Virus record (IMG/VR): IMGVR_UViG_3300013121_000023
Coordinates: 96,001-160,000 of that record
Length of the DNA stretch: 64,000 nt
Reading direction: 5' to 3' (one strand)
Origin: a virus
Lineage: Duplodnaviria; Caudoviricetes
Of the stretch, positions 1,931-62,002 are shown piece by piece (position 1 is the first letter of the stretch; every line of letters starts with the position of its first letter). The notes under the pieces are model-generated. The model had not been told where the DNA came from, did not search any database, and saw only the letters and a program-made list of their open reading frames with translations. The translations under genes were made by a program, and so were the position numbers.

Positions 1931-2135
1931 CGTGATTATTAGTGAGCCCAGTGTACGTGCAGACAGGTACGGTAATAGACACTGGCACGCTAACATAGTG
2001 ATAAACGGTAAAACATGTGGGGCTGTGACCAAGCCGATCAAGAGTAGGGACGACTGGTTTGGTTTTCATGATACGTGTACAAGGGCACGAGAAAACCTAC
2101 AGTCTATTCAAGACACCATCTGCAAAGTTGGGTTA
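1917..2135 (+). CDS. hypothetical 72-aa protein ending at TTA
   Basis: GGAG SD, ATG 1917, MQQYNVII...ICKVG then TTA 2133-2135 just before the SD of the 2149 gene; fills an otherwise empty gap. Confidence 0.6.
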
Positions 2136-2148
2136 GACCGGAGAAACC

Positions 2149-3879
2149 ATGTCCAACGTGATCAACGCGAACCTTGTAAGAGACACCAACAACCCGCCAG
2201 ATGCGTGGTGTGTTACTTGGCGACTTCTTCTGTCCCTCATACAAGCAGGCTGGCAAATAAAGTCCTCTAGCAACGGCACTACAAAACTGGGTGTGGGTAC
2301 GGCTAGCCCGACCAACTTCAGCTTGGCTACTTTGCAAAACGTTGGGGCTGGAGGTACTGGGCCATCGATCACAAACAAAGAGTTTGGTGGATTGATGACC
2401 GTAACCGGTGTTTCTGGTCTTGTATCACCAACAGCTACAGACCCTGGCTCAGAGGGTAACTTCATCACCTTTTCTGGCTTTGCGTCGGGCGGTAACAACG
2501 GCACTTTTCAGATAGCCGAGGTACTGAGTGCTACTTCATGCACCATCTGGAATAATTCTGGTGTTTCTGGTGACGCGAATAACGGCAATGTTGGTGTTAC
2601 CTGGCAGGAGAAGAGCTTTAAGACAGCTACCTATACTCCTCCTGGGGCTGTTGTTCAGTGGGCTGTTCTAGAAGGGCCTAGAGTTATCAAGGTTCCTGTG
2701 AACACCACACCATCTTCCAGCTTCATCATCGGTGAGACTGTTTATCAGGGCGCCACCGTAGCTACCCAAAGAAGCGGTACACTAGCCGGCGTTGTTATGA
2801 ACTCTGCTGGTACATCTGGGTGGATGGCCATTGAGCCGCACGATTACGGCACATGGGATACGGTTGACGATATTGTAGGTGTCACTTCTGGCGCTACGCT
2901 GCTGGCAGCAAATATCTCAGCTACACCTGTTGTGTACGCGAATGAAGTGATGTTCGCGAAGTCTTCTTCAAACTATTATCAGGGTAGCTTTTTCTGGTGG
3001 TGCGGTGATAGGTCTGGCGAGAACTCAGACTCACTATCAGGTCGTGCAGGTTCTACAGCCGCTATTCCTCCCGGCTTTACAACCGACACCTTTCCGACAA
3101 ACGCCGCCCTTGGTTATGGCGGCAATGCCGCGCACCAGAATGTCATCAATACTACGGCAGCCAACATGGGCGCGAATGCACAAGTCATGTGTGCAAACGC
3201 TTTGCCCAGGCCGAGGCTCGCAAATGGAAGTGCCAGAACGCCTAGATATGCAGACGGTTCGTTCACCGTTTTGTATCACACGTCGGCCGCTCTTCTTACC
3301 GATGGGTCATACCCAGTGTCTTGGCAGCGCTGTGATGACGTAGAGCCAGGCGACTTGTCGCCGTTCGCCATTCTTACACAGGCGCAAGGAACAACCAGCT
3401 TCGATAAGAAGGCAAACCTGGCGAACACCTACATAGCTGCAACAAGCGGTGTTGTGCATCTAGGTACAAGCGGTTCTGTAAACGCTTGGGTAGCCTTTCC
3501 AGGTAGAGGCTGTGGTGTTGCTGCGAGAGATATTGTGCAGCCGTACGTCGGTCTCGTAGCGCAGACAACATCGGTACACTTCATGGCGCTGAACTCAGGA
3601 GAAGCCTGGAGGCTGGCAGTACACCCAGACACCACACCTCCTATAAGGCCCGAGCGCATTGGTTTGTACAACGATGGCTCAGCTAACCTAACTGGTGGCG
3701 TCACAAGTCAGATAAAGAACAAGAAGGGATCGCCCAGGTGGGTACGGTTGCTGCCTACAGGAAGCCGCATGTCTACGGCAGATAACAAGTTGTGGATATC
3801 AGTGGCTCCTCTTGACTCCACTTACGGCTGCTTGATGTTCGGGCCCTATAACGGTTCTACTACGCCTGTCGCCACATGA
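2149..3879 (+). CDS. virion structural/tail protein
   Basis: 576 aa, G/S/T/A-rich; NNGTFQIAEV motif seen in tail proteins; structural context. Confidence 0.6.
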   Translation: MSNVINANLVRDTNNPPDAWCVTWRLLLSLIQAGWQIKSSSNGTTKLGVGTASPTNFSLATLQNVGAGGTGPSITNKEFGGLMTVTGVSGLVSPTATDPGSEGNFITFSGFASGGNNGTFQIAEVLSATSCTIWNNSGVSGDANNGNVGVTWQEKSFKTATYTPPGAVVQWAVLEGPRVIKVPVNTTPSSSFIIGETVYQGATVATQRSGTLAGVVMNSAGTSGWMAIEPHDYGTWDTVDDIVGVTSGATLLAANISATPVVYANEVMFAKSSSNYYQGSFFWWCGDRSGENSDSLSGRAGSTAAIPPGFTTDTFPTNAALGYGGNAAHQNVINTTAANMGANAQVMCANALPRPRLANGSARTPRYADGSFTVLYHTSAALLTDGSYPVSWQRCDDVEPGDLSPFAILTQAQGTTSFDKKANLANTYIAATSGVVHLGTSGSVNAWVAFPGRGCGVAARDIVQPYVGLVAQTTSVHFMALNSGEAWRLAVHPDTTPPIRPERIGLYNDGSANLTGGVTSQIKNKKGSPRWVRLLPTGSRMSTADNKLWISVAPLDSTYGCLMFGPYNGSTTPVAT

Positions 3880-3887
3880 GGTTAGTC

Positions 3888-4262
3888 ATGGCTGACATAG
3901 GAACCACGGCTGACGTTTTCTATTACGGTACGCAGAATCAGACGATTGATTCGATGTACAGCGGTAGCCTTCCTGGTCTACATCCTAAAAATAACCAAGG
4001 GCTTGGGATAGAGCCTAGTAGTACTGACTACGGGAAGATAGTTCTAGTGGAGGGTGCTGGTATTCCTGCGAGTGGGCCACCACCTCTTCCAGAGCCTGTA
4101 AGGGTATTCAAGATGTCTTGGAGAGACCCTGATGGCACACCTGCGTGGCGTTCTTGGCGAGCTACTGGTGCAGCAGATACCAGTGGCAGTCAGTACAGCG
4201 GTCCAAAGAACGGTGCTACTCCTATATCGGATGCTACTGTTTTGGGTTCGTGGGTTGAATTA
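3888..4262 (+). CDS. hypothetical structural protein ending at TTA
   Basis: GAGG SD, ATG 3888; ...LGSWVE then TTA 4260-4262, followed by SD and ATG of next gene. Confidence 0.6.
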
Positions 4263-4276
4263 GGTGAGAGATCGCT

Positions 4277-11337: not shown

Positions 11338-11712
11338 ATGGATGACGCATTCAAACTGGTAATTGACGTATTTGGGTGGTCTACCATCCTGTATGCCCTG
11401 TTTATACACTTCGTGGTCCTTTGCTTTAGACGGACTGCTGAAGCCATCAAGCCATCCCTGACCAGCAACAAGACGTGGCGCGGCCTTGTGCTGCACTCAG
11501 CTCCCCCTGTATTCGGCGTTCTGGGGGCCATCGTACCGGCCAACTACCCATTCCCAGGTGTCGTGGCCAGCAGCATGTACGCAAGGGTCATGTTCGGCGT
11601 TGTGCTCGGTACCTTGAGCGGCGTTGTGTACAAGCTACTCAAAAGCAAGTTCATGCCGGCAGACGACACGAAGTCAAAGGATGATGTGCCTCCTGTGACA
11701 ATAGATAAGTTA
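11338..11712 (+). CDS. holin-like membrane protein ending at TTA
   Basis: three hydrophobic segments, charged C-terminus; TTA 11710-11712 precedes a terminator hairpin. Confidence 0.5.
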
Positions 11713-11778: not shown

Positions 11779-12117
11779 ATGCTGGAAGACAAGAACATGT
11801 ACTGGGTTTTTATCATTGGCGTATTTGTGCTTCTATCCACCGTTTTGGGTATAGGCATAGCCTTCCTCAAGTCTTTCTTGGGTGATGGCCATGGCGTGGA
11901 TAAAGAGCTGGAAGACAAAAAGAAAGAGATAGACACAAAGATAGACGAAGAAATCAATGTGATCGACGAAACACAAGAGGAGAAGATAAAGGAAATCATA
12001 GAATCACATGATGTAGCCGTTCAAGAAGTCATTGATGAGCAGCAAAAGAAAGAGGAGATGCCCCCAGATGAACTTACTGCCAAGCTATTGGACATAGGTA
12101 GCAAGGTAAGGCAGTTA
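11779..12117 (+). CDS. membrane-anchored coiled-coil protein (i-spanin-like) ending at TTA
   Basis: N-terminal TM helix plus E/K-rich coil; TTA 12115-12117 lies just before hairpin TTGGCGCAC..GTGCGCCAA. Confidence 0.5.
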
Positions 12118-15285: not shown

Positions 15286-15789
15286 ATGGATGTCACGTTT
15301 CATGCATACAAGTTCGGTAGAGAGATACGACAGCTGAAAGAACTCAGCGAAGAAGAAGAGCTTGCCTTTCTACAATCCTCGTTGAAAAACATCAAAGACA
15401 AAATTATAGAAGAGATAGAAAAAGCAACAGATGGTGATAATGCAGTGTTTATTGTAAAATATATGCTTAATGTTTCTCGAATGGCCGTTAATGAGATACG
15501 CCTAAAGTACTTTGATGTCAATCATCCATATAAAAACGCTGTTGCACGTATGGTGCATGAATACACATACGACATAGTAACAAAAGTAGTCACTGATCCA
15601 ACAATTGTTGTTTTGTGCCAAATCCATAACAATGACAGACGAGATATTGTATGGGAAATTACGCTTACTATAGTAAATGCTGGATCTAGCGTAAATGACG
15701 AGTATAGACGTGTTCGTATAGCAGACGTACCCACAAGAACATTGAGGACATACGAACGGGCCTTGTTTAACATACCGGATTGGTTTTTA
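15286..15789 (+). CDS. hypothetical protein, probably ending at TTA
   Basis: AGGAG SD; only in-frame TTA seen is at 15787, 12 codons before TAA. Confidence 0.55.
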
Positions 15790-17073: not shown

Positions 17074-17382
17074 AGGGTATATGTGGTGGTGTGTGACGAT
17101 CTCCCCAGCAGCTCACAAAAAGCTGTTCAGGGAGCACACGCACTCACCCAGTACATTCTACGTAACTTGCAAGAAGCCCAACAATGGGAAAAGGACTCAA
17201 ACGTCCTTGTGTTTCTGCGGGTGCCCGACGAGCAAGCCCTTATTTCTACAGCTGACAAGCTGAAGATTAATGGCGTTCCGGTGGAGGTGTTTACTGAGCC
17301 CGATTTGGGTAATAGGGCTACAGCACTGGCTGCGTCACCGTCAGCAGCCAAGCACCTCAAAAGATACCCACTGATGAAGTTA
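17074..17382 (+). CDS. pth2: Pth2-like peptidyl-tRNA hydrolase domain ending at TTA
   Basis: RVYVVVCDDL..QKAVQGAHA..W..LVFLRV..E..L..FTEPDLGN..TALA..YPLMK then TTA 17380-17382 right before a terminator. Confidence 0.75.
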
Positions 17383-17487: not shown

Positions 17488-18222
17488 ATGCGCGCTCTTC
17501 CGATGATTGAAGCTGCTCCACATAAAGGCCAACTCTACTGTTCAGTGCGGTATGCAAAAAATTACGTAGCTGATAAAAAGGATTTCTTTATGCGTCTATT
17601 TAGCAAGCTCGGTACGCATACATGCGCGCCAGCAGCACACTGCTACACAGGAGATCCAGTAACCATATCTTCCATGTATTACGCATGCCCATTTTTGACG
17701 CATATCAAACCCACTTACCACAGATTGTCTTATCGGTGCGACCTGTTTGAAGATAAACTATCCACAGTTATCCCCAACAATACGGGAATACCGTTTCACA
17801 TATACGACTTTGAAATGCTTATGAATAGTCTGCAACGTGAAAATCAGATTGCTGTAGGTACTGCCATACAACTTCAAATTGGTCGTTTGTGGCAATGTCG
17901 TCAGCTACAAGAAGATTTGACTATGCATGGACGTTATCTCGGAGAAAGCAGAGATGGTCGCTCATCAGATGGGAATCATACGTCTGGTCTAAATATGATT
18001 CCATTTATAATACGTACCGATGGCGGTCAGTCGTCTGACAAGATTTCACTCAATGCGAAAAAGGAGGTGTTCTTGAAAACGCTACTTAATCCATCACCAC
18101 CAGTGACACAGATATACCCAATGTCGGCAGCACTTGATGAACTGCATACAGCCGACGAGATGAAAACAGCGAGGAGTCGTTATGAAGAGATATTGAAAGA
18201 GTTGCCGAAAGTGGATGAATTA
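17488..18222 (+). CDS. cysteine-cluster protein (YkgJ-like spacing) ending at TTA
   Basis: CPFL..YRC.LF..CRQLQEDL..HG; TTA 18220-18222 removes a 56-nt overlap with the next gene. Confidence 0.55.
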
Positions 18223-24645: not shown

Positions 24646-25776
24646 ATGGGTTCTTTTGATTTCACCTGTGCTATTTCACGTATGCCGATTAGCTATGAGC
24701 AGCGAGCTATCTTGCTACTATTGGCAGGTAATGAGAGTGTCAGTAACAAAGGTTGTTCACCTAATGACTGGTGGTTCCCTTGGTCATTTCCAGTGTGTGC
24801 TACGTATAAAGATTATGGCAGGTTTGTACCTGTGTCGTGCCATGACGTATGGGAGAAAGTTCTACAGAAATATGTTGTGGTGAAGGAAGTAGGAGAAAAC
24901 GAGTATCACGATGTACCCACACACAGGAATATGAAATTCGAAGATATAATAGAAGCATGTCTAGAAGATAGACTGGAAATAACAGATAATGCAGGCGTAG
25001 TTTACCAAAACGCGCTTGAACTAAACGATGAAGCCAGTACGTATATACCAACAGTAAATAAAATACGTCGCATCATAAGTGGTATAATGAAAAAAGACGC
25101 AAATGATTTCTTGATAAGAAGGATAGGTAGAGGCGTTATTAACGTAAGCACCCGCATAGGCTCAACCATAAAAGCTAATAAGTTCTTTTCCGCTATGTGT
25201 AAATTCATAAACAGTAGAGCGACCTTCACATCTATAGTGACACCTGGTAAATACGAAGTCACTCTAACTATTTACGCAAAGCCTGGTAACTTTCATATGA
25301 ATCCCGACGAGTCTATGGCTGGTGAACCACCGACCAAAATGCCAATGGCTTTCATGGCTATAAGAGGCGATGTTTGGGATTATCTGAGTTCTACTAACTA
25401 TACTGGTTTGACGAAAAAGAAAATACAGGCAGACATAACACGACTGAGAAAGTTCGTGGATTCGTATAAGAACGAGCCGGAAAGTATGAGATACCACCTG
25501 TGTAAACTTGATATGTCAATTGAGTCACGCATATTTATAGATGGTGTTCTTGGACCTATGAGGTGTGATAGGTCACCGCATCTGTTGGTGGGCAGTAGCG
25601 AGAAAGAAGAGTTCTGGCGACTGGTACGTGCTTTCGCTACGGCTATGCCGGCTATACACAGACTCAGACACATGCTCGTGCCGTCCACGTCAGTTGGGTG
25701 GCAGGTGGATTATGGGGAGGCGCACGTTCGCGCCTATAAAGCGTTTGCTCAGATGGCTGGAAAAGGGAACAAATTA
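24646..25776 (+). CDS. hypothetical phage protein ending at TTA
   Basis: GGAGG SD; MGSFDFTCAISRMPI..YKDYGRF; TTA overlaps next ATG (TTATGA). Confidence 0.7.
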
Positions 25777-27393: not shown

Positions 27394-27406
27394 GAAAGAT
27401 TGTTTG

Positions 27407-27479
27407 TAGGACGCCCGGGACTTGAACCCGGAACCTGCGGATTAAAAGTCCGCTGCTCTACCTATTGAGCTAGCGACCC
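27407..27479 (-). tRNA. tRNA-Lys(UUU)
   Basis: cloverleaf; GCGGA-CTTTTAA-TCCGC; GGTTCAAGTCC T loop. Confidence 0.9.
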
Positions 27480-27490
27480 GAAGGAGAACC

Positions 27491-27787
27491 ATGACAACAG
27501 CAGCGCGCATGAGGGATTTGGTGGGCGAATATACCAAAAAAGTCATTAGTGAAAATGAGGAACATATAAATGAAAACTTGCTACCGATATTCCTTAAAGA
27601 CTTGTATTCTTGCATAGAATCAGCTGCATCTAAGGGACAGCGCACATACCAACATGCTATAAATCTTACAACCTTGAAGGTGCTGCATTTGGTTGTTCCA
27701 CAATTGAGAGATCGAGGTTATTTGGTAGAGTATATTACTAGTAGTACTACACAGCATCTTATGTACATGAACGTATCTTGGTCATTA
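27491..27787 (+). CDS. hypothetical protein ending at TTA
   Basis: AAGGAG SD; ...NVSWS then TTA 27785-27787 before the shared terminator. Confidence 0.6.
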
Positions 27788-27791
27788 CTTG

Positions 27792-27827
27792 GTAGCTAAA
27801 AAAGAAGAGAGCGAAAGCTCTCTTCTT
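27792..27827. terminator. bidirectional terminator
   Basis: AAAGAAGAGAGC-GAAA-GCTCTCTTCTTT between convergent genes. Confidence 0.8.
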
Positions 27828-28205
27828 TAAATACTTGAATCTATGCGCCTCAATGTATGAGGCCATTACCTCTGCAATGTAGTCGGGGGCAATTCCCCGA
27901 AGTGCATTGCGACTGAGCACTTTTGCGGTACCCTTCCCCCACGGTACCTTCACTGCCTCAATATATGGTTTGCCCTCCCCTTCTGGATGGCGCATTGTTA
28001 GCAAGTGTCTCGCTGCCTGCATCAGCAGGGAGCTTACCTCCTTCGGCTCCTCCAGCCAAAGGATGTGGATTACTGGGTGGTTCAGCACCACCCTCAATTG
28101 CTTTATGGTTTCTTCATTTGCAATATCAGTGTACCTAGTGCCCTCATGTACGAATGTCCTAATGTCCAACAGGGCCTTCCGAAGGCCCTCTATGTTTTCG
28201 TACAT
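27828..28205 (-). CDS. hypothetical protein (APEY family) ending at TTA
   Basis: AGGAGG SD; LNHPVIHILW..IAPDYI; TTA 27830-27828 abuts the terminator. Confidence 0.65.
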
Positions 28206-28318
28206 AGTACCTCCTTTCATATATCTTATGCCATTTTTACGAATAAATTAAGGTACACATAAGTAATAATCGAGGGGCTAAAGAAATGGAAGGATAGCTC
28301 CATCTCTAATAAGTGTTG

Positions 28319-28390
28319 TGCCCCAGAGAGGAATCGAACCTCCTTTAGCCTCCTTGTAAGGGAGGTGCCGGACCAGCTGGCTCCTGGGGC
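28319..28390 (-). tRNA. tRNA-Val(UAC), non-canonical D arm
   Basis: GCCCCAG/CTGGGGC acceptor; CCTCC-CTTACAA-GGAGG; GGTTCGATTCC. Confidence 0.8.
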
Positions 28391-28395
28391 AACTG

Positions 28396-28947: not shown

Positions 28948-28950
28948 AGG

Positions 28951-35376: not shown

Positions 35377-37952
35377 AACCAGTCATCCTTCTTTTGGGGC
35401 GCGCTCCAACCATCGCCTTCTACAGACTCTTCTAGCTTAGATACCTGTTTGCGCAATCTACGCAACTTAGATATATCGGAGTCTTCTTTCCATTTCTTAG
35501 CTGCATCCAACTGAGACAGGGCCATCCTGCTTATGTCTCTATCCCATACTGCGTTCGATACTGATTTGCCCAACAAACCAGCTATCTGTGTACCTGCCAA
35601 TAGAGTTGCTAGTCCCCTAGTTTTTGGATTTTCAAATCCTCTTACGTAGGCTGGTACGGTCATCAGGGCTGATAGGCCGGCTTTTGGAGCGTTCTCTCTC
35701 AGATCTTCCACTGTTTGCCCTAGAAGGGATCTTCTAGCTACCTCTTCAAGAGCGTTTGCTTTAGCCGGGCTTTTATTAGCCTCAACCGCCAGATTTTTTA
35801 TTAGACTAGGTGCGTAGCTCTCCGCCATAAGACCACCTAGAGCACCAGCACCAGCACCAGCTAGTAGGCTAGTAGCGGTTGGTACAAATAGAGACGATCT
35901 TACGGTTCGTTCATCGACGTTTCTGTTGAGAAGATTGGGTAGCAGCGCACCGCTAAACATCCCCACTACTGGGTTTATAGCGCTAAAACCAACACGACCG
36001 GCACTGGCTAGTTGTAGGCGCAGTTTATTTGCCGCCAATTCGTTCTTACCCTCATCTGTCATCTTAAAGTTGGCGCTACCGGCTGTCTTTAGGAAACCTA
36101 TAGACTTTTTGAAATCGTCCATAGGAACTGAATCTATACGGCCTATTATGGTGTCTTTGTAGGCAGGACTACTGTGAGCTAGAAACATCTTCCTGGCTTC
36201 TCCCTCAGAGTTAAATCCTAGCATTACTTTGTTTTCGTCGAACTTGCCGTTCAACATTTGCTTTATGATGAATGCTTTATCAGCATTTTTGTTCGGGCCT
36301 AGATATACGTCTGTCTCCTCTCCGTCTTTGTCTTTCGTGCCAGGTATAAAGCCGTAGTCTGTCTTGTACTTTCTGGTCCAGGCAGGCAGACCGTTCTTAC
36401 CGTCAAACTTCTGTAGGAATCCCTTTGGTCTATCTACATGGACAGGAATTCCTTGAAATTCAGTTTTCTTGTGTACCTTGTCTGACGCTGTTTTCTCGTG
36501 CTGCGGAAGAAGATCTCTGAATTGCTTTATCAGGTCTTCTTTCTTTTGCGACATATCTGACAAGTACTCGTCAACTGCCTTATCAGGAGTTCTCTTTAGC
36601 CACTTTTCATTGAACCTGGTTATCAAACCTTTTGGCCGAACACCTAGGTAGTGCTCGATCAACACTTTTCTTTCTTCTGGGGGAAGATCTGCGTGGCTGC
36701 CGTATCTGGCCGCTCTACCTTCTAGTTGCTTCAGCTTTTCTCTGTTCCAGTGTGGGTCTAGTATCTGTACCAACCTGGTACCTTTCAGGTCCAACCCCTC
36801 ACCGCCAGCAGATGACACCAACAGTGCTCGCAGCTTACCCTCGTTGTAATCACGCACCATTTGGTCTCGTTTACTGTGCGCTATATCACCCGTAAACTCA
36901 CCGAAAGGTACACCAGCTTCTTGTAGCTTTGCTTTGTACGGGTTTATGCCCGATTCCAGCCAGTTCGAGTAAACCAGAGCCTTCGCCCTAGGGTTTTCAT
37001 CGATCATTTTCTTTAGTGTTTCGAAGGCTTTGTCTATCTTAGGCTGGTGTATGACAGCATCTTCCTTGGAAAGCCCCGCTGTGGTGTTCACAGCTTGTCT
37101 GGCCGAACCAAGAAAGTTGTTCATCATGGCAGACTCCTGCTTGCTGGGAGGCAGGCCTCTTTTGACCTTTGCGGCCACCCATGGGGGCGCTTGACCCATG
37201 AGGGTGTCATATAGCTTCAGCTGGTCAGGAGTAAGTTCTACCTGTACCTGCTTGGTCTCCACATCGGGAAAGTTGTCTTTTGTCCCCGGATGGTAGTCAA
37301 CCCATTTACTGAACTTCTGTTTCAGTTCTGGTGCTTTTCTGTCGTAAAGAACCTGAATCGTTCCAGGCGTAGCTTGGTTTATATGCTTGTCCCAAAAAGA
37401 CGGCTTCACTACCTTTTCAGTTATGTACGCAGATTCGAAGTCTTTTCTGTCGTGCGGCAGTATCTTTGCATTAGCGGCAAGGTTTATGAGTGGAGCTATA
37501 TCAGCTGGATGATTGTAGAAAGGGCTACCAGTAAGCAGAAGTCTCTTATCCGCCTGTGCCCCCAAGTTTTTTATTGCTCGAAAGGTAGCGCTACCTATGT
37601 CCCTAGCTCTGTGCGCTTCGTCCACAATCATAAGTGGGTTTTCTTCTGTGGTTCCTTTCGCAGCTAGATTCTGAATGCTCTCTATATGAGCCGGCTGCTT
37701 ATGCCCCTTCAGATGCTTGGCCCTCTCTTTAGCGTAGTTGTCCCTAAGCGCGGCTGGAACAACAACGGTGCTAGGTACCCCCAGAGCATCTTGTGCAGCT
37801 ATGCTTGAAAGAGTCTTACCGCTACCCAGACCATGAACAACCAACAACCCAGGTTGGTCTTCTTTCTGAATGCGATCTACTACACGTTGTTGATGAGGCA
37901 ACAACGGTGTTTTTACCTCAGCTATCTTTAGCAAATCGTCGAGTAGTCCCAT
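35376..37952 (-). CDS. SNF2-family helicase fused to pyrophosphatase-like and membrane domains, ending at TTA
   Basis: HGLGSGKT, DEAH, LTGSP, GGEGLDL, QLEGRAAR; YGFIPGTKDKDGEETDVYLG..DENKVMLGF; hydrophobic C-terminus. Confidence 0.85.
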
Positions 37953-39394: not shown

Positions 39395-39413
39395 CTTTTT
39401 AGCGTTTCGTTAG

Positions 39414-39485
39414 CGCGGGTAACGGGACTTGAACCCGTACATAAGGATTTAGAATCCTATGCTCTACCAGTTGAGCTATACCCAC
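39414..39485 (-). tRNA. amber suppressor tRNA (anticodon CUA)
   Basis: GTGGGTA/TACCCGC; TAGCTCAACTGGTAGAGCA; TAGGA-TTCTAAA-TCCTT; GGTTCAAGTCC. Confidence 0.85.
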
Positions 39486-40789: not shown

Positions 40790-41974
40790 TAATTTTCCCT
40801 TTACGGACTCCACTACTGTAGAAGTTATAGACTTTGCTGAGTCTATAACTTCCGCTATTTCCATGCCCAGCAGTTGGGCATTGGCCATGGCCTGCATGGC
40901 CACGAGCTTGGACAGCGTTTCTCTTACTTCTATAGTTTCTTGCACTGTCCTGGCTGTATCATCAGCCATCTTGCTTGTTTCCCTTACAGCCACGGCCATG
41001 GAGTTGATAGCTTTGGCGATTTCATTTTGTTGATTGAGCATAGCGATTTGAGTTGCCCCCAAATCCTCTAGCTTCTTAGCCATCTCAGATACGATGGCCA
41101 ATATTTGTTGTGCAGCCCCACTCGCTGGAGCTGGAGCCGGTGTTGTGGCCTGTGGAACAGGCGGGGCTTCTGCGGCGGCTGGTGCTTCTACAGCCATCTT
41201 GGGCTTTCTAAGGCTCTTTTGCGCCGCCGTAGGCGCCGATGCAACAGACGCCGCTGTGGGCGCGGCTGGTGCGGCTGGTGCGGCTGGGGCCTGAGCGGGT
41301 GCTGTGGGTACGGAGGGGGTACTGTCTGCTACTTCAGGAAGCACCCTCCCCTCCTTGGATGCATCCACTATGGCCGTTCTGACACTATCTGTAAAAAACT
41401 CTTTTCCTTTTGCCCTAAACAACTTTAGGGCCTGACTGGCGTAACTAACTTTCTTCGGGACTTCTAGCAGTATGAATTGAGGTGTGTAGGCGCCTATAGC
41501 GCTCATCATGCCCCTCAAATGTATCGGCGGTATTGCCGCCAATACCTTTTCATCCAGCGGGGTTTCCCCAGCCATCTTGATGTATTCTTCCGGTGTCTTT
41601 GCTTCAGCTCTAACTGTCATGGTCATGGGCAATCTCCTTTTTTGTACGGCTTTTGTGGCCAGAATCTTGTCTTTGTGCTCAGCATTCATAGCCAAGCAAA
41701 CCAAAACTTGTGCGTCAACGCATTCGTAACAGGAGTAGGGGTCTCCGCTTGCTGCTGGGCATGTCAGCTGCGGTGATACCTGCCTCCATCTTTCCAGTAG
41801 AAAAGACATCAATTTATCTCTGATGCTATCTACTGGGTTTCTTTCCCATTCTTCTAGATGTTCGTCGTTTTCTAGAAGAGAGATCAATCTTTCTTTAGCT
41901 AGTTCTTCATGGGCATCGTGTCCTAGTGACCTAGCGACCGTCACTAGCTCTTTTTTGTTAGCTTCTTCAAACAT
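40790..41974 (-). CDS. hypothetical protein with Ala/Pro linker; ends GK-TTA with a -1 frameshift extension to 40641
   Basis: G GGA AAA TTA; -1 frame open for 50 codons to TAA at the terminator. Confidence 0.65.
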
Positions 41975-43848: not shown

Positions 43849-44386
43849 CCGTATCTCCTATAGCTTTCAACCAGTCAGACTTTGACATGATTACGTAGGA
43901 CTCGTCAGCGTCTCCGGTAGCTCTGTTAACGAATTCAACTACTAGAGCTGACTTTTCATTACCTTTTGTAGCTGATTGAGCTTTGTGTAGAAGCCCTTTT
44001 GATACGCGGAAACTGTCAGCGGTCTGTACGCTTTTAAGCTCTACATTCCACTTACCTTTTTTGCGTACGTCTCCTTTGGCCCTAGGCGTAGCCCCTGATG
44101 CTGGTTGAAGCTTACCGCCAATTTCCTCGGCGAGTATCTTCTCTCGCTTCGTAGCTACCTTCCTTGTCCTGTGATCTGGGGCTATTCTACCCTTCTTCTT
44201 TTCTACGTTTATGTCAGAGAACTCCATACCTATAGGTCTTGATACAATGCAGCCGCGACAGCAAACAAGCTCAGCTATGTCTGCTACCGTTTGTGCAGTT
44301 AGAAGATACGAATCAGCACGTTCTCTACCGCAAATAGGACAAGTACCGCTTTCAGGGAATACTTGTATGGTAAACGAAAACGACAT
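43820..44386 (-). CDS. Hjc-like resolvase with N-terminal zinc finger
   Basis: CPIC..CRGC; RE..QPASGA..KGDV..VELK. Confidence 0.7.
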   Translation of the reverse strand: MSFSFTIQVFPESGTCPICGRERADSYLLTAQTVADIAELVCCRGCIVSRPIGMEFSDINVEKKKGRIAPDHRTRKVATKREKILAEEIGGKLQPASGATPRAKGDVRKKGKWNVELKSVQTADSFRVSKGLLHKAQSATKGNEKSALVVEFVNRATGDADESYVIMSKSDWLKAIGDTDEKSNRKPK

Positions 44387-45665: not shown

Positions 45666-45860
45666 TAAACGATTTATTGTCTCGAACGGCTCTGTACCAC
45701 AGTTGTTGCACACCAGTACCCTGCCATGAACTTCCGGCCTGCTACCGCACTTAGGGCACTTATAAACGTCGGATGCAGTCTTAACACCTCTGTCGGTAGT
45801 TCCCATGGCCGTTTCATCGACCCCGTACTTAGACATTTCCTCTTCCGATTTAGGTAGCAT
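45666..45860 (-). CDS. small zinc-ribbon protein ending at TTA
   Basis: KYGVDE..KTAS..CPKCG..C.NCGTEPFE. Confidence 0.6.
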
Positions 45861-48110: not shown

Positions 48111-49325
48111 TAACTCAACAGATTCTTCGTCGTCGTCCTCTACAGTTCGATCTTCAAAATGTACCGGTGTGCCTTCTTCTGGTGATGGCTCTCCGTACAC
48201 ATTGATCTGGTCGCTCCAGCTATCTGGCACGTATACCCTTGGAAAATCAAAGGGTACAGCCATCTTGCTGTATTTTGGATCTATAACAGAAGGCGCCGAT
48301 ATACGAACCATGTCTAGCTGGGTCTTCTTGGTTTGTGGCTGCCCAGGATTCCCTGGATCAGTTACTACCGTTCGTATATCTATGTCTACGTCAAACAACG
48401 ATGCTCTTCTGGCATCATTGCATTGAGTACACCAGAACTTCTCTTGCAGTAGACCGATGTTTTTGCACTTAGGGCAATTATAGGGTCTGCTGGTTAGAGC
48501 AGATATCTGCTCGTCTGTTAGCGAGGTGCTGGTCAAGTCTATGATTGGGTTATCACAGTTTGAGCACAGCCACATTGTGGTTTCTATGCTCTGCTGAGAG
48601 CCACACGATGTGCAATCATTCTCAACAGAGCTATTCTTTTCCAGCAAGTACTGATGCTGCAATTTGGACAGCTTGAATGGGCGCATCATCGCGTCCACAA
48701 CCTTCGCTGACATTTGGCAGTGCTGGCAACCTCTACCCACACATGGCTCCCATGTCATGTATGGTTGGTTGGTCCTCGGGTTTACCTTTATCTGCTTCGT
48801 TTTGAAGTCAGTTTGAGGTACCTCGTGATATTTGTGTATGTGTAGAACATTCCATACATACTTGTGGGATTTACTTACATAACCAGCTTCAACATTTGAA
48901 TTTTTGAACTCATAAAATATGTCGCAACCTCTACACGGCTTTCTGTGCTCTCTAGTAAAGTGCAGAGGTCCGCCGCTACATATGGTTGATTTCTTGTTTC
49001 TTGCGTTGTAATGCTGAACAAACTTAAAGAATTCGGATTCTGTTTCATACAGTTCGAATCCCCAAGAACCGTCTTCGCGGTCTACCCTACTCGGTATCTG
49101 CAACTTATAAGAACCCCGTATGAGGCGTATCTTGTCGCTTTTACCGGCCAGTTCAGTCGGTCTGAAGCCGGGATCGTATTTAGATAGGAACGGTCCCTGT
49201 CTGGTACCGCCGCCGCCAGACATAGCGGCTAGCGCTCTTTCTCGCTGTGACAGCGAAAGCGAGCCGGGCTTAATTCCGTACTTATCCAGCTTGTTCAACA
49301 CGTTTGGATCTTTCCCGAATGACAT
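48111..49325 (-). CDS. ssDNA-binding-like protein with zinc ribbons, ending at TTA TTA
   Basis: H..C..C..C, several CxxC pairs, acidic tail EDDDEESVE; between primase and polymerase. Confidence 0.6.
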
Positions 49326-50316
49326 GAAACTCTTTTCCTTTTCTGTTTTCCAAAACCCAATTTATCAGAGGTTTCGGTGTCTCATACGATGACTGTATAT
49401 CAAACTCACTCAAATCATCTGGTTGTTCTACTTGTTTCAGATACGGCAAAAAATAGACAGATGTTGTGAGTGACAATCTTGCTGCTGCGTCTATGGAGCC
49501 TTTTATACCTGCGTCGTTGTTGTCTAGCATCAAGTATATAGGACAACCCATACGGGTTAGCAACCATTCTTGCTCAAACGTTAGCATTGAGCCGAGTAGT
49601 GCTACTGTGTTCCTTATACCAGATTGGTGAAGTTTCATGCACGCCTTGAATCCTTCGACCAACACAACAGGAGGGGATTTGTTAGTAAAAAACACCTCTG
49701 GGTAAACTCTGTGAAAGTTCCAGAGTATGTGGCTTTTGACTATCTCTCTCCTAGCTAGACCCCATTGTAGGTACTCGGTGTCATATAGTTTGTATCTTGG
49801 CGCTTGCCCTGGCATTACTGCTCGGCCAGATATACCCTCCAATCTTCCCCTGAAGTCTCTCAGTGGGAAAGTTATACGCATGTTCTTTTTATCGAATCCT
49901 ACATCAAAGTAGGAAAGCGTTTCTCTGTTGAATCCGCTTTTAACCAGGTCCAGTGGTGTGTAGTCAAATAGACCCAGCACGGACTCAGATAGAGGTTCTA
50001 GTGTGACCACATTGGGTCTCACACTGCTTTTGTCAGGTGGTGTTGCCTCTTCCAGTTCTTCCAGAAGAAACCTGTATTGCCTGTTTACTACATCCCTGGA
50101 ACCACCCAGCTTGCACAGTAGGTTTCTAAACGTCCCTTTCTCGTGACACGAGAAGCAGAAGAATAGGCCGTTTACTAGGGATATAGCCAACGTGTGCGTT
50201 ACTACGCTACCCATTGTATGAAATGGGCATGTCACCTGTACGTTGTTTGGACCAGATCTCTTTACATAGCCGAACCTGTTTTCTATTATTTGGTAAACTT
50301 CTTCTCTCGCAGACAT
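49282..50316 (-). CDS. dnaG: DnaG-type primase
   Basis: CPFH..CFSC zinc finger, FP..G..GR, VEG..DND.AG TOPRIM. Confidence 0.9.
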   Translation of the reverse strand: MSAREEVYQIIENRFGYVKRSGPNNVQVTCPFHTMGSVVTHTLAISLVNGLFFCFSCHEKGTFRNLLCKLGGSRDVVNRQYRFLLEELEEATPPDKSSVRPNVVTLEPLSESVLGLFDYTPLDLVKSGFNRETLSYFDVGFDKKNMRITFPLRDFRGRLEGISGRAVMPGQAPRYKLYDTEYLQWGLARREIVKSHILWNFHRVYPEVFFTNKSPPVVLVEGFKACMKLHQSGIRNTVALLGSMLTFEQEWLLTRMGCPIYLMLDNNDAGIKGSIDAAARLSLTTSVYFLPYLKQVEQPDDLSEFDIQSSYETPKPLINWVLENRKGKEFHVIRERSKRVEQAG

Positions 50317-51755
50317 AATAGACCGTCTATGTTTTCTGGTACGATATCTTTAAGGGCTTGTTCAAGCTCTGTTTCTTTTTTGGACTTGCCTTTCTTCTTA
50401 GCTATTTTGTTAGCCACCTCTTCTGTCAGTTCTTCTTTAAGAGCTTCTTGATCGTCTCTTGTTTTCTCTGTTTCAATAGCGTACTTATTCAAAACCTCTA
50501 TAAACTCAAAGTTAGTACATGGTTTTGCATGAATCTTAAAACCATCCAGGCTGTACTCACGGGCACCGCCTACACTCAGAGTGATAGTTCTATCTATGTA
50601 GTTAGGTATGGACCTAGCGAATAGGGTTGCGTCTTGAGCGATAGCATCGCTGTATCCAATATCAGAGCTAGACGCTTCCTCTTTTTTGTCTGCCGTTCTA
50701 TTTGCCTGTGTTGTTCCGATGATAGGTACGCCAAAGTCGAGCGGTATGCCGCGCAAGCTTCTGGAGATGCCCATAACTCTTTGCCACTCTTGTGCTCTGG
50801 ATGAGCCTTCATCGGAAGACATCAGGTAGAAACCGTCGATACCTACTACAGAAGGCTTGTAGTGGTTTATCTTGCTCCTTATCCACATCGGTGTGTCCTT
50901 GCCCACACCAACGTCTCTACCAGACAGAACTATGATGTCATTGTATCCATTAGATGCGGCTTTCTTTTCGTTCAGAACGTCTTTGAATTGGTAGAACGTA
51001 TCTCTCATATCGCTGTTCAAGCGACCGAATTTTACGTCTCCGTAAGCCGCTCTGATATAGAAAGCAGCTATGCGCATCAGTATATTCTTGGGTGTCATTT
51101 CTTTGGTATATATGACCACCCTATGTCCTATCGCGTACGCGAAGGCCAACAAATAGCAGAGAACAAACGTTTTCATGCTTTTTGGTCTTCCGTATATGAC
51201 GTTAAAATCGGCTCCTTCTATGCCGCCGGTTATGTTCGTCACATCGCTCCACGGCCAAGGTAGAACACAATTGGTTTCTCCACTTGCCAGTTTGTCGTAG
51301 TCGAACAGTATCTCATCGAACATGTCTGAGAATGTATGGTCTGTTCTTCTAGACGAGTTCTCTTGAACTATCTCTTGCGAAATAGTCAGGAGTAGCTGAG
51401 CTGCGTATACTGGATCGTCATCTTTTGCAGCGGCTACTTTTAGCAGCAAGTCTTGAACTGATATTCTGGCTTTTGCTTTTTTGACTTCGTGTATTATTGC
51501 ATCGATAGTCATGCTTTCGTCATCAACAAGATCGTACGAGGGGAAGTACTCGTTCATCATGTTGGGGCCGAAAACGGCTAGTTTGGTGGTTGGGTTTTTA
51601 GCGTAGTCGCACAGGGTGAAGAATATGGCCTTATCACTTGCCGTACCCATGTGCTCAGCAGTGATACCTTCTTCGAGCACATGGGTCAGTAGGTCGAAAG
51701 CTTTGCCACCGCTACCGATTATCTTAGACAAAAGTATAGTAGACGGACTAGCCAT
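50316..51755 (-). CDS. dnaB: DnaB-like replicative helicase ending at TTA
   Basis: GRPKSMKT, EM, IDG.YL, QANR, SDAIAQDA; TTA overlaps primase ATG. Confidence 0.9.
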
Positions 51756-58326: not shown

Positions 58327-59246
58327 GCTACTCAAAGCAGCACGCTGTTTTGGCTTTTGTCAATGAGATCGAAAAGACAGCAGTGTCTCACAGCGTTGGG
58401 GCGCCACTAACTGCTGCTGCTTTGGGGGGTCTTTGGTTTGGCAAGAACAAGTGGGACGAGGCCAGGGAACGTGGTGAGGGTGTTGGGGACGCTGCTTTGT
58501 CGGCGCTCAAAGGTGGCTTGAAGGGCGCCGTGGGTGGTGGCCTGGTAGGTGGTGCCATCAGCAAGCTATCGCCCATGGTGGAGAGGAACTTGTCTCAGTT
58601 CGGACAGGCTCAGCTACACGGCTATACTGGGTGGACACCAAAGAATATGACGTACGAACAGGCCATGGCACATATGGACCTTGGTACGCATGGTGTAGCT
58701 GGTGATGTAGCGCGTTATAAAGACGAGTTGGCTAAAGCCATAGAAGAAAAAGCAAAACATGTGGGAGACCCATCAGGCCCGGTATCTGTACTAAAGCGAC
58801 ACCTGCTGGATAGAAAAATAGGTTCTTTGCCAGAACAGATAACCAGTACAACAGAGGAGCTAAATAAAAGACTTAGTAATCCTCATGTTGCTAAAGCTAC
58901 CGACTGGCAGCTTACTAGTTTGCCTGGTTACCTAAAGGCGATGAAAGAGCATGGTGTATTGCCAGTTGCGAAAGCGTCTCTTAACGAAGCCTGGCACAGC
59001 GCACCTGGGTTGTGGAAGGCTCCGCTTATAGCTGGCTCTGTAATGCCTTTGTACTACGGAATCTCTGGACCGGTACCAGAAGACAGCAGCAGAGCTGAGG
59101 AAGTTGCCAAAGGCGTCGGCAGAGCTGTAGCTAACCCATTTGGATTCGGATTGCCCATGCAGGCAGCAAATGCTGTGGGCGATGCTAGTGGGTATATCGC
59201 TGGTTCAGTAGGCAAGGGCGTTGATTATCTGATGAATAGAGGTTTA
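58323..59246 (+). CDS. Gly/Ala-rich hydrophobic protein (possible ejection protein) ending at TTA
   Basis: AFVNEIEKTA N-terminus, glycine-zipper helices; TTA 59244-59246. Confidence 0.6.
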
Positions 59247-61138: not shown

Positions 61139-61139
61139 G

Positions 61140-61169
61140 TAGCTAAAGAAGGGGGAGAAATCCCCCTTC
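61140..61169. terminator. terminator between convergent genes
   Basis: GAAGGGGGA-GAAA-TCCCCCTTC preceded by TAGCTAAA. Confidence 0.8.
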
Positions 61170-61176
61170 AAGTTTT

Positions 61177-61518
61177 CTACTTCCTGTTTATTATCCTTCT
61201 TACTCTCACCTCTCTTATCTTGCGGACTATTTCACAGCCCGCGTCCATAAATGTTTTTACGCAGCCGTCGTCTCCAACGACTGCGAACCCGTCTTTGTCT
61301 CCCACCGTGATTGGGTAGAAGACTCCACTGTTCAATATGTAATAGTCCATTGTGTCAAATGCCATCTTGATTTGTTTCATTATTATTTTTCGGGCAAGCG
61401 TGCCAGATATTCCGAACCTTTGGTTAAGTCGCTCACATGCGTGGCGACTCATACCCTTTGGCCTTCTAGGGCTAGGGCCATTTGTCGTCGTCGTCGTCGT
61501 CGTCGTCAACATCGTCAT
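61177..61518 (-). CDS. small protein with HAxER motif (RNase toxin-like fold possible)
   Basis: SRHACERLNQRF..VKTF; start uncertain. Confidence 0.5.
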   Translation of the reverse strand: MTMLTTTTTTTTNGPSPRRPKGMSRHACERLNQRFGISGTLARKIIMKQIKMAFDTMDYYILNSGVFYPITVGDKDGFAVVGDDGCVKTFMDAGCEIVRKIREVRVRRIINRK

Positions 61519-62002
61519 TGTCGTCTTCTCCAGTGAAAATGTCCCACAACTCTTCGTTTGAGTTCATAGCTACTGCGCAATCGAAACAAACGAAGGTCGC
61601 ATTGTTCTCATCGATTTTTATGACCGGTGAGATTGGGGCCGCATTTTCTTTGTATATAGGGCTCTTTTTTGGGGCCGTTATTTTTGCTTCTGCCGCTCTT
61701 ATGCATTGCACTTGATAAGCAATAAATCTACAGCAGCGTGAACATACGCACGCTGGATCTGACGTTTCTCCCTCTTCTACTGCTACAGGTACGTCAGATA
61801 CACTGTTGAACAACTCCCCCCAACAGTGCTCATGCATTATTAGAGGATCTTCCTCCTCTATTATGAAATTTGGTAGATTGTGCATCCTTTCGAAAAATCC
61901 AATATTCAGCACTACTACCAACTCTTTGCATTTGAAGGAATCGCCGCATGTGCAAGCGAATTCTTCTTCTAGTATTGCATTAATAATTTCGTCAACGTCC
62001 AT
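61472..62002 (-). CDS. acidic Cys/His-rich hypothetical protein
   Basis: C.CG, HEHC, CSRC, CFDC; poly-Asp tail from GTC repeat. Confidence 0.6.
   Translation of the reverse strand: MDVDEIINAILEEEFACTCGDSFKCKELVVVLNIGFFERMHNLPNFIIEEEDPLIMHEHCWGELFNSVSDVPVAVEEGETSDPACVCSRCCRFIAYQVQCIRAAEAKITAPKKSPIYKENAAPISPVIKIDENNATFVCFDCAVAMNSNEELWDIFTGEDDNDDVDDDDDDDDKWP

What the first reader, a model, noticed from the sequence alone, without database searches (positions are those of the whole stretch)
2133..61986. TTA (UUA) behaves as a fourth stop codon: candidate new phage genetic code
Seen: I found no in-frame TTA inside the 1177-aa baseplate, 715-aa fibre, 650-aa polymerase, 628-aa portal, 576-aa tail, 540-aa helicase, 454-aa head protein, the first AAA ATPase or the RNAP fragment, although A-ending codons (CTA, ATA, AGA, GTA) are common. 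About 24 genes have their first in-frame TTA at the natural end. TTATG overlaps with the next start at 25774, 32587, 34758, 35376, 50316. TTA just before terminator hairpins at 11710, 12115, 17380, 27785, 27828, 48111. TTA just before the next SD/start at 2133, 4260, 35239, 59244; before tRNA-Val at 28396; after a slippery heptamer at 40790; doubled or next to a standard stop at 48111, 61984, 30351, 25774; trimming long overlaps or tails at 15787, 18220, 44371, 45666, 45782. Over-extended 5' ends in the ORF track also contain TTA upstream of the SD-supported start (ORFs 3876, 15865, 22347, 22918, 23821, 33144, 37991, 43168, 45630, 62622). Known: TTA as stop is NCBI table 23 (Thraustochytrium mitochondria); phage recoding described so far is stop-to-sense. 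I know of no sense-to-stop case in a phage or bacterium. Inference: UUA is read by a release factor, or is an unassigned codon resolved by stalling and rescue.
Basis: partly seen in the sequence, partly recalled or inferred. Interest (0 to 1): 0.98.

Follow-up and report, generated by a model that had tools for sequence, protein, structure and literature searches.

The report
Leucine codon TTA ends phage genes
In this complete 177-kb uncultured phage the leucine codon TTA is never used inside genes and instead sits where related phages have a normal stop codon, so it acts as a fourth stop signal, a code change that I found described only for mitochondria and plastids.

Summary

- **TTA is missing from gene interiors.** TTA is common out of frame. 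Across 48,460 codons aligned to two related phages it never occurs inside an alignment, while the other five Leu codons occur 424-1,004 times each.
- **In-frame TTA clusters at ORF ends.** 54 of 86 lie in the last 15% of the ORF (P about 8e-24).
- **Sequence after the TTA is non-coding.** It looks non-coding by codon usage and carries terminators or the next gene's start.
- **Relatives stop where this phage has TTA.** This holds for the large terminase and a RecA-like gene. Sheath and tube are one 1,315-aa ORF under the standard code but separate genes in relatives.
- **With TTA as stop,** 68 of 224 genes end in it.
- **The change is specific to this lineage.** A 55%-GC relative uses TTA as Leu. 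The nearest terminase relatives are 61-64% GC with almost no TTA, which fits codon capture.
- **The release mechanism is untested.** The phage has no release-factor gene and no tRNA-Leu(UAA).

I found no paper reporting this in a phage or bacterium. Earlier unchecked AI notes from this scan report the same pattern in other phage genomes.

The parts
2133..2135 (+). TTA ending ORF 1815-2135 (106 aa), 13 nt before the ATG at 2149 of the 576-aa tail gene
   Evidence: TTA at codon 106 of the 151-aa table-11 ORF. Reading it as stop removes a 120-nt overlap with the next gene.
4260..4262 (+). TTA ending gene 3888-4262; the next gene starts at 4277
11710..11712 (+). TTA ending gene 11338-11712, followed by a hairpin
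   Evidence: context; one search finds a stem at 11733-11751.
12115..12117 (+). TTA ending gene 11779-12117, followed by a GC-rich hairpin
   Evidence: context (TTGGCGCAC...GTGCGCCAA).
15787..15789 (+). TTA ending gene 15286-15789
17083..17382 (+). PTH2-type peptidyl-tRNA hydrolase gene (99 aa) ending in TTA at 17380-17382; intrinsic terminator at 17384-17407
   Evidence: PF01981, 32-35 bits; its own GAGGG ribosome-binding site and GTG start; terminator; the G001 homologue ends within a few residues of the TTA.
18220..18222 (+). TTA ending gene 17488-18222; removes a 39-codon tail that overlaps the AAA ATPase gene
25774..25776 (+). TTA ending gene 24580-25776, in a TTATG overlap with the start of gene 25776-26345
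27785..27830 (.). Two converging genes (27491-27787 on + and 27828-28220 on -) each end in TTA on either side of one shared hairpin
   Evidence: contexts.
28396..28398 (-). TTA ending gene 28396-28686, 5 nt upstream of tRNA-Val (28318-28390)
30351..30353 (-). TTA immediately followed by TAA, ending gene 30351-30842
32587..32589 (-). TTA ending gene 32587-33132, in a TTATG overlap with the next start
34758..34760 (-). TTA ending gene 34758-35234, in a TTATG overlap with the next start
35239..35378 (-). A 45-aa ORF (35239-35376) that starts in a TTATG overlap with the TTA ending the SNF2-helicase/InPase gene (35376-37952) and itself ends in TTA at 35239
40790..40792 (-). TTA ending gene 40790-42031, directly after the slippery heptamer G_GGA_AAA; the -1 frame stays open for 50 codons
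   Evidence: codon-usage score per codon is +0.225 for the -1 frame and -0.281 for the 0-frame tail.
44371..44373 (-). TTA ending the RecA-like gene 44371-45597
   Evidence...ECRFR[TTA] aligns to ...ECAYR followed at once by TGA in relative G002. The 23-codon tail is not conserved.
45666..45668 (-). TTA ending a 64-aa zinc-ribbon-like ORF (45666-45860)
45782..45784 (-). TTA ending gene 45782-46093
48111..48116 (-). Doubled TTATTA ending gene 48111-49325, followed by a hairpin
   Evidence: the G002 homologue ends about 6 residues before the TTA and the 27-codon tail is not aligned.
50316..50318 (-). TTA ending the DnaB-like helicase gene 50316-51755, in a TTATG overlap with the next start
59244..59246 (+). 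TTA ending gene 58323-59246, 5 nt before the portal gene's ATG at 59252
61984..61989 (-). Doubled TTATTA ending gene 61984-62514
   Evidence: the G002 homologue ends 2 residues away.
27406..30253 (-). Cluster of nine tRNA genes: Lys-UUU, Val-UAC, Met, Thr-UGU, Ile-UAU, Arg-UCU, Leu-CAA (29544-29623), Leu-UAG (30017-30100) and Tyr. Most read A-ending codons; the UUR box is served only by Leu-CAA, which reads UUG
   Evidence: The genome has no tRNA with a UAA anticodon.
39413..39485 (-). tRNA with anticodon CUA (amber-suppressor type, discriminator G73); any role in the TTA change is not shown
   Evidence: I found no in-frame TAG in conserved genes.

Best explanation
**Core claim (about 0.9).** In cells infected by this phage, UUA is not read as leucine. 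It marks the end of coding regions, giving a four-stop code of the same form as NCBI table 23.

**Shown:**
- TTA is absent from all conserved gene interiors.
- TTA sits where relatives have TAA, TAG or TGA.
- What follows it is non-coding, or is the next gene.

**Inferred origin: codon capture.** The phage belongs to a clade of 55-66% GC jumbo phages in which TTA had almost vanished. Its own lineage then fell to 46% GC and came to favour NTA codons, for which it carries its own tRNAs. TTA could return only where translation should end, because nothing in the infected cell decodes it.

**Favoured release step (inferred, about 0.55).** A class-I release factor supplied by the host, most likely RF2-type with relaxed reading of the second codon base as in the organelle cases, releases the chain at UUA unopposed by any tRNA-Leu(UAA). 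The phage keeps UUA unreadable by carrying tRNA-Leu(CAA), which reads only UUG, rather than tRNA-Leu(UAA).
For: **Codon counts**
- in-frame TTA occurs only at ORF ends (54 of 86 in the last 15%, P = 8e-24), although it is common out of frame.
- 0 interior TTA among 48,460 codons aligned to relatives, against CTA 1,004, CTT 898, TTG 874, CTG 850 and CTC 424.
- the other 60 sense codons are all used at least 68 times.

**Sequence after the TTA is non-coding**
- the codon-usage score (log-likelihood ratio of coding against off-frame usage, per codon) is -0.022 +/- 0.024 after TTA and -0.051 after ordinary stops. It is +0.216 just upstream of TTA and +0.22 at true C-termini.
- TTA density in these tails is 0.012, equal to the off-frame background of 0.0126.

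**Homologue ends**
- 15 terminase homologues all end ...QG, and TTA is this phage's next codon.
- the RecA-like gene ends exactly at the TTA. Sheath and tube, and two other same-frame pairs, are separate genes in relatives G001 and G002.

**Gene layout**
- 68 of 224 genes end in TTA, and one-base stop-start overlaps rise from 3 to 18.
- the distance from TTA to the next standard stop (median 8.5 codons) matches that after TAA (8.0) and TGA (7.5), so there is no sign of selection for back-up stops.
- TTA stops occur in nearly every strand block and in very highly expressed genes (sheath, tube, terminase). Together with the stop-start overlaps this favours efficient release.

**Lineage and precedent**
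- relatives of comparable GC use TTA as Leu (G001 has 85 interior TTA, mostly opposite L, I or V). G000 sits on a long branch among 61-64% GC relatives with almost no TTA.
- the tRNA set.
- PMC12574857: organellar UUA-to-stop changes are tied to RF2 Ser204 substitutions.
Against: - No protein-level or ribosome-level data exist.
- The host is unknown, so neither its RF2 nor its tRNA-Leu(UAA) could be examined.
- The phage has no release-factor homologue of its own.
- From my memory of Kano et al. (1993), not checked here: in Micrococcus luteus extracts unassigned codons stall translation without releasing the peptide. So an unread codon does not terminate automatically.
- A host with a table-23-like code has never been described.
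- Only two relatives were compared genome-wide, and both are distant (terminase about 50-53% identical).
Confidence: 0.55

Rival explanations
1. UUA is an unassigned ('hungry') codon and not a true stop. No tRNA and no release factor reads it. Ribosomes stall, and the finished chain is freed by peptidyl-tRNA drop-off followed by hydrolysis (host Pth or the phage PTH2), or by a ribosome-rescue route. The coding consequences would be the same as for a stop codon.
For: - The phage has no release factor and no tRNA-Leu(UAA).
- It does encode a PTH2-type peptidyl-tRNA hydrolase.
- A slippery G_GGA_AAA heptamer lies directly before TTA 40790, and the -1 frame beyond it looks coding. An empty A-site is expected to provoke that kind of slip.
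- PMC10732093 describes drop-off plus Pth at UUA when its tRNA is lacking, and Streptomyces phages that avoid UUA.
Against: - TTA ends 30% of genes, including the most highly expressed ones (sheath, tube), and takes part in 18 stop-start overlaps. Slow stalling, or tmRNA tagging of the product, would be costly there.
- There is no excess of back-up stops after TTA.
- PTH2 is also present in relative G001, which reads TTA as Leu, so it is not specific to this code.
- The phage has no SmpB or Pth and no tmRNA.
Confidence: 0.3
2. The host can read UUA, but the phage removes or inactivates host tRNA-Leu(UAA) early in infection, for example with an anticodon nuclease. This would shut off host translation and leave the TTA-free phage genes unaffected. 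TTA then ends phage ORFs by one of the two routes above.
For: - The phage brings its own tRNAs for both other Leu routes, CAA and UAG.
- From my memory, not checked here: T-even phages cleave a host tRNA-Leu after infection.
- Many phage genes have no known function.
Against: - No nuclease or tRNA-repair gene was recognised. RtcB and RNA ligase are absent, and 20 proteins around the tRNA cluster gave only PTH2, AAA ATPase, a weak DUF2671 and a weak deaminase hit.
- TTA stops occur in every gene block. That presumably includes genes translated before any phage factor could act, although temporal classes were not determined.
- The closest relatives are high-GC phages with almost no TTA, which already explains the codon's loss.
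Confidence: 0.08
3. TTA is still leucine. It is a very rare codon tolerated only in dispensable C-terminal tails, perhaps as a bldA-like regulatory device, and the standard-code ORFs are the real proteins.
For: Every TTA is followed sooner or later by a standard stop, so table-11 ORFs remain open.
Against: - The tails have non-coding codon usage and background TTA density.
- They run through terminator hairpins and the next gene's start.
- Homologues stop at the TTA.
- This reading would fuse sheath and tube.
- Tail lengths match the run-on lengths after ordinary stops.
Confidence: 0.04
4. Artefact of assembly or of my gene calling.
For: The genome is a metagenomic assembly. The four-stop gene set contains no internal TTA by construction.
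Against: - The key tests used table-11 ORFs and alignments to independent genomes.
- The contig is complete with terminal repeats and contains no N.
Confidence: 0.01

Closest known systems
NCBI translation table 23: Thraustochytrium / labyrinthulean mitochondria (UUA = stop)
   Same: The same single change, with UUA joining TAA, TAG and TGA as a terminator while UUG stays Leu. No cognate tRNA-Leu(UAA) is encoded.
   Different: That is an organelle with a few dozen genes, and the change is linked to a Ser204 substitution in its own mtRF2a (PMC12574857). Here it is a 177-kb bacterial virus with no release factor of its own. The factor, if there is one, must come from an unknown host.
peDinoflagellate plastids (UUA and UCA = stop, altered pRF2) and Marsupiomonadales / Pseudoscourfieldia mitochondria (UUA and UUG = stop, altered mtRF1a) (PMC12574857)
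   Same: A bacterial-type translation system in which a Leu codon has become a stop. It ends a large share of genes (over half in two of the plastids, 30% here), and the evidence is of the same kind (C-terminal alignments, missing tRNA).
   Different: Here TCA (520 uses) and TTG (862 uses) remain ordinary sense codons. No RNA editing is involved. No release-factor change could be examined.
UUA avoidance in Streptomyces phages, and UUA-headed coding gaps in phage phiHau3 terminase (PMC10732093)
   Same: Phages that lack sense UUA because the host decodes it poorly (bldA tRNA). In both cases UUA is a site of non-standard decoding.
   Different: Those phages and hosts are high-GC, so TTA is rare at the DNA level, and UUA is proposed there to trigger bypassing inside a gene. 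Here the genome is 46% GC with abundant out-of-frame TTA, the terminase has no internal TTA, and TTA is used positively to end 68 genes.
Stop-codon recoding in phages (TAG to Gln, TGA to Trp; bioRxiv 10.1101/2021.08.26.457843, PMC9523058)
   Same: A phage whose genetic code differs from the standard one, and which carries its own tRNAs including a suppressor-type tRNA(CUA).
   Different: The direction is the opposite, sense to stop. I found no in-frame TAG or TGA in conserved genes, and the phage has no release-factor gene.
Unassigned codons in high-GC Micrococcus luteus (AGA and AUA per PMC4695839; UUA from my memory of Kano et al. 1991)
   Same: Codons lost under GC pressure together with their tRNAs, which is the first step of codon capture. 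The phage supplies tRNAs for exactly AUA and AGA but not for UUA.
   Different: In M. luteus the codons are simply unused. Here UUA has been taken up again as a terminator in a genome that is no longer GC-rich.

Membership tests
Table-23-type code (UUA = stop) | No in-frame TTA at conserved positions inside genes | tested here: met
   0 interior TTA in 48,460 aligned codons. The 18 TTA that were found lie at alignment ends or in antisense frames.
Table-23-type code (UUA = stop) | TTA occupies the position of the stop codon in homologues | tested here: met
   exact for the terminase and the RecA-like gene, and within a few residues for a dozen other genes.
Table-23-type code (UUA = stop) | Reading TTA as Leu produces non-coding tails or fuses separate genes | tested here: met
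   tails are non-coding; sheath|tube, 18249-19640|19653-20534 and 72404-74026|sigma factor, in genome coordinates.
Table-23-type code (UUA = stop) | No tRNA with anticodon UAA available | tested here: inconclusive
   None in the phage genome. The host is unknown, so its tRNA set could not be checked.
Table-23-type code (UUA = stop) | Release factor with an altered codon-reading region (RF2 Ser204 substitution) | not testable with these tools
   The phage has no RF-1 or PCRF domain. The host was not identified.
Table-23-type code (UUA = stop) | Proteins end at UUA (protein-level evidence) | not testable with these tools
   No proteomic data.
Streptomyces-phage-type UUA avoidance / phiHau3 bypassing | UUA-headed short frame-breaking inserts inside an essential gene such as the terminase | tested here: not met
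   the terminase aligns without gaps to 15 homologues up to its last residue and contains no internal TTA.
Streptomyces-phage-type UUA avoidance / phiHau3 bypassing | Absence of TTA explained by high GC content | tested here: not met
   GC is 46% and frame +1 TTA is 16.6 per 1,000 codons. Relatives at 49-54% GC use TTA inside genes at 5-9 per 1,000 codons.
Phage stop-to-sense recoding (codes 4 and 15) | In-frame TAG or TGA inside conserved genes | tested here: not met
   stops inside alignments are either end spill-over or lie in shadow frames.
Phage stop-to-sense recoding (codes 4 and 15) | Suppressor tRNA encoded by the phage | tested here: met
   tRNA(CUA) at 39413-39485.

The most novel reading that the evidence does not exclude
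This phage, together with its unidentified host (probably a high-GC soil or sediment bacterium), uses a genuine four-stop genetic code in which a release factor reads UUA. That would be the first sense-to-stop reassignment outside organelles. It arose by textbook codon capture and is now visible because the phage drifted to low GC. The recurrence noted by this scan in unrelated jumbo phages would then point to a whole host lineage with an unrecognised code.
Probability: 0.45. Interest if true: 0.95.

Novelty: new variant of a known kind. Interest (0 to 1): 0.88.

Why it matters
**For the genetic code.** All phage and bacterial code changes described so far turn a stop codon into a sense codon, or one sense codon into another. 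A leucine codon turned into a stop would be a new direction for non-organellar codes. It would also be an unusually clean natural example of codon capture.

**For annotation.** Table 11 mis-annotates about 30% of this phage's proteins. It adds false C-terminal tails, fuses sheath with tube, and hides small genes such as the ORFs at 35239-35376 and 45666-45860.

**For host prediction and biology.** The finding predicts a host, or a state of the infected cell, without UUA decoding, which could serve as a marker for assigning hosts to such phages. The phage's genes would be mistranslated in any ordinary host, a natural genetic firewall. The question is directly testable with C-terminal proteomics or by expressing the sheath-tube region in E. 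coli.

Tried and rejected
**Finding relatives and a host**
- blastn of the head-portal region against cultured phages found nothing.
- tblastn of the terminase found matches of at most 27% identity, so there is no cultured relative.
- A capsid-based search of IMG/VR found nothing.
- A terminase search of GTDB genomes hit only phage contigs binned into MAGs of five different phyla, so no host could be inferred.
'Relatives' are not available for a virus record.
- The closest terminase (P0002, 55% identity) had no retrievable DNA.

**Looking for a hidden tRNA or RNA factor**
- Low-threshold ARAGORN on the tRNA region gave only noise.
- Rfam at E <= 1 found no extra tRNA-like gene with a UAA anticodon, only a weak YrlA-like match.

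**Looking for phage translation factors**
- RF-1, PCRF, RtcB, RNA ligase, Pth and SmpB are all absent. The PTH2 positive control worked.
- Pfam on 20 proteins around the tRNA cluster and PTH2 gave little: PTH2, two AAA ATPases, a weak DUF2671 hit and a weak deaminase hit.

**Readings I rejected**
- *TAG as a sense codon.* No conserved gene carries an in-frame TAG. The run-on after TAG scores only slightly above the other stops (+0.063 +/- 0.03).
- *Extra back-up stops after TTA.* There are none.

Full report
**What the window is.** The window is bases 96,001-160,000 of a single 177,132-bp IMG/VR virus record with direct terminal repeats, estimated 100% complete. GC content is 46%. It is a contractile-tailed jumbo-type phage. 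It encodes a large terminase, sheath, tube, portal, a fused RNA polymerase beta-beta' gene of about 2,200 aa, a sigma factor, replication genes and ten tRNAs.

**Checking the observation without assuming a code.**
- *Window, table 11.* The 78 long ORFs hold 20,660 codons. In-frame TTA occurs 51 times, against 370 and 199 in the other two frames. All 51 lie in the first few codons or near the 3' end.
- *Whole genome.* There are 86 in-frame TTA in ORFs of at least 150 aa. Of these, 54 lie in the last 15% of the ORF (binomial P = 8e-24) and 11 in the first 10%. TTG, CTN, ATA, GTA and others are spread evenly.
- *Not a DNA-level effect.* The TTA trinucleotide is not rare in the DNA: 879 and 815 on the two strands of the window.
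- *Contrast with similar codons.* The genome strongly prefers the other NTA codons: ATA 1,623, GTA 1,315 and CTA 978 in long genes. All other 60 sense codons are used at least 68 times.

**Is the sequence after a TTA coding?** I trained a codon-usage log-likelihood score on gene interiors.

| Stretch | Score per codon |
|---|---|
| From a 3' TTA to the next standard stop | -0.022 +/- 0.024 |
| In-frame run-on after ordinary stops | -0.051 +/- 0.019 |
| Matched stretches just upstream of TTA | +0.216 |
| Real C-termini before standard stops | +0.22 |

- TTA density in the tails is 0.012, the same as the off-frame background of 0.0126.
- Tail lengths (median 8.5 codons) match the run-on lengths after TAA (8.0) and TGA (7.5).
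- So TTA behaves like the other stops, and there is no sign of extra back-up stops behind it.
- Several tails run straight through terminator hairpins, for example 17384-17407 directly after TTA 17380. Others run through the next gene's ribosome-binding site and start.

**Homologues.**
- *Terminase.* It has more than 1,600 relatives. Fifteen aligned homologues of 50-55% identity all end ...QG. In this phage the next codon is TTA, followed by a 35-aa tail with no counterpart.
- *Two whole relatives.* I fetched G001 (178.6 kb, 54.7% GC) and G002 (177.4 kb, 62.5% GC).
- *RecA-like gene in the window.* It ends ...ECRFR[TTA], where G002 has ...ECAYR followed at once by TGA.
- *Other TTA-ended genes.* About a dozen end within a few residues of the relatives' stops.
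- *Same-frame fusions.* Three table-11 ORFs with 'internal' TTA are two genes each. The sheath (residues 1-1036) and the tube (from about residue 1056) lie in different frames in both relatives. The same split applies to genome 18249-19640|19653-20534 and to 72404-74026|sigma factor.
- *The refutation test.* In 146 stop-free alignments of relatives' ORFs to this genome (48,460 codons), Leu codons were CTA 1,004, CTT 898, TTG 874, CTG 850, CTC 424 and TTA 18. All 18 TTA are spill-over of one to a few residues at an alignment end (5' cases lie up to 16 columns in, upstream of the real start), or lie in antisense shadow frames. No TTA sits at a conserved internal position.

**Gene models.** Calling genes with TTA as a fourth stop barely changes coding coverage (175.3 to 171.0 kb).
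- Overlaps of at least 10 nt fall from 65 to 44.
- One-base stop-start overlaps rise from 3 to 18.
- Stop usage becomes TGA 76, TTA 68, TAA 54 and TAG 26.
- TTA stops occur in nearly every strand block, both structural and replicative.
- The new code also uncovers small genes, such as a 45-aa ORF bounded by two TTAs (35239-35376) and a 64-aa zinc-ribbon-like ORF (45666-45860).

**Lineage.**
- The terminase clade is large and entirely uncultured. Most members have genomes of 165-200 kb and 55-66% GC.
- In the high-GC members TTA is almost or entirely absent. Members of lower GC use it inside genes: L032 (49% GC) at 6.8, L082 (51% GC) at 5.1 and L069 (54% GC) at 9.3 per 1,000 codons.
- G001 has 85 interior TTA in alignments, mostly opposite L, I or V of this phage, so TTA is Leu there.
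- On a terminase tree this phage sits on a long branch among 61-64% GC relatives with about zero TTA.
- This fits codon capture: the codon vanished under GC pressure, and returned only as a terminator when this lineage became AT-richer. That scenario is inferred, not shown.

**Mechanism.** The phage has no tRNA with a UAA anticodon. It has no RF-1 or PCRF domain, and no Pth, SmpB, RtcB or RNA ligase. The PTH2 positive control for that search worked.

Its own tRNAs serve A-ending codons: AAA, GUA, ACA, AUA, AGA and CUA. In the UUR box it carries tRNA-Leu(CAA), which reads only UUG. That choice keeps UUA unread.

The release step therefore depends on the host or on an unrecognised phage factor.
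- *Release factor, favoured at about 0.55.* TTA ends very highly expressed genes, takes part in 18 stop-start overlaps and shows no excess of back-up stops. In every described organellar UUA-to-stop case the change goes with an altered RF2 or RF1 (PMC12574857).
- *Stall and rescue, about 0.3.* It is supported by the PTH2-type peptidyl-tRNA hydrolase gene (17083-17382) and by the slippery heptamer directly before TTA 40790 with a coding-like -1 frame. However, PTH2 is also present in G001, which reads TTA as Leu.
- *Phage-induced loss of host tRNA-Leu(UAA), about 0.08.* No gene supports it.

The host could not be identified, and no reads could be examined.

**Comparison with what is known.**
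- The code has the same form as NCBI table 23.
- UUA-to-stop is also reported in peDinoflagellate plastids and, together with UUG, in some green-algal mitochondria (PMC12574857).
- Streptomyces phages usually lack UUA, and phiHau3 may bypass UUA-headed gaps (PMC10732093). Here the terminase is uninterrupted, and the lack of TTA is not a GC effect.
- Phage recoding described so far is stop-to-sense (10.1101/2021.08.26.457843, PMC9523058).
- Four full-text searches found no report of UUA as a stop in a phage or bacterium. Subscription-only papers are not covered by that library.
- Earlier AI notes of this scan, which I did not check, report the same pattern in other windows of this genome and in other phage genomes, including a 435-kb megaphage and a 143-kb high-GC phage. 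No look-alike stretch of this locus was found elsewhere in the scan.

**Verdict.** The release mechanism remains open. This is a new variant of a known kind of code change, in a new biological setting.

Noticed in passing
window 40790-40800 (- strand) and the -1 frame down to about 40640: The canonical -1 slippery heptamer G_GGA_AAA lies directly 5' of TTA 40790. The -1 frame stays open for 50 codons with coding-like codon usage (+0.225 per codon), while the 0-frame tail scores -0.281. This is either a candidate programmed -1 frameshift helped by the unread or stop codon, or a separate small gene starting at an internal ATG.
   Followed up: partly
window 39413-39485 (- strand): A tRNA with anticodon CUA (amber-suppressor type, discriminator G73, Trp/Gln-like arms) in a genome where TAG still looks like a stop. 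TAG is the least used stop (26 of 224 genes), and the run-on after TAG scores slightly above that after the other stops (+0.063 +/- 0.03).
   Followed up: partly
window 28889-28998 and about 29680-30016 (- strand): Structured RNAs lie between the tRNA genes. One gives a weak Rfam YrlA (Y-RNA-like) match (28.7 bits, below the gathering score). By eye, another stretch has a tRNA-like stem-loop with a CCA anticodon-type loop. Neither has a UAA anticodon.
   Followed up: partly
window 17083-17382 (+ strand): The phage encodes a PTH2-type (archaeal/eukaryotic type) peptidyl-tRNA hydrolase. A homologue is present in relative G001 but none was found in G002.
   Followed up: partly
window 20989-22050 (+ strand): A 353-aa protein gives a weak match (E = 0.001) to the zinc-binding region of cytidine/dCMP deaminases. 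It could act in nucleotide metabolism or on RNA or tRNA.
   Followed up: no
G002 (relative phage) 155475-155845, within L109: The 62.5%-GC relative, which IMG/VR classes as a provirus, encodes its own tmRNA with tag ANDNEVAQRLAA.
   Followed up: no
window 62797-64000, continuing to genome 165207; also L006: This phage clade encodes a single fused RNA polymerase beta-beta' protein of about 2,100-2,500 aa just upstream of the packaging genes. In one relative it is interrupted by a LAGLIDADG domain. The phage also has its own FliA/WhiG-like sigma factor (genome 74027-74827).
   Followed up: no
whole genome: Codon usage is unusual. ATA makes up 61% of Ile codons (1,623 against ATT 501 and ATC 535), and the TA dinucleotide is generally over-used, although all relatives are GC-rich.
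   Followed up: no
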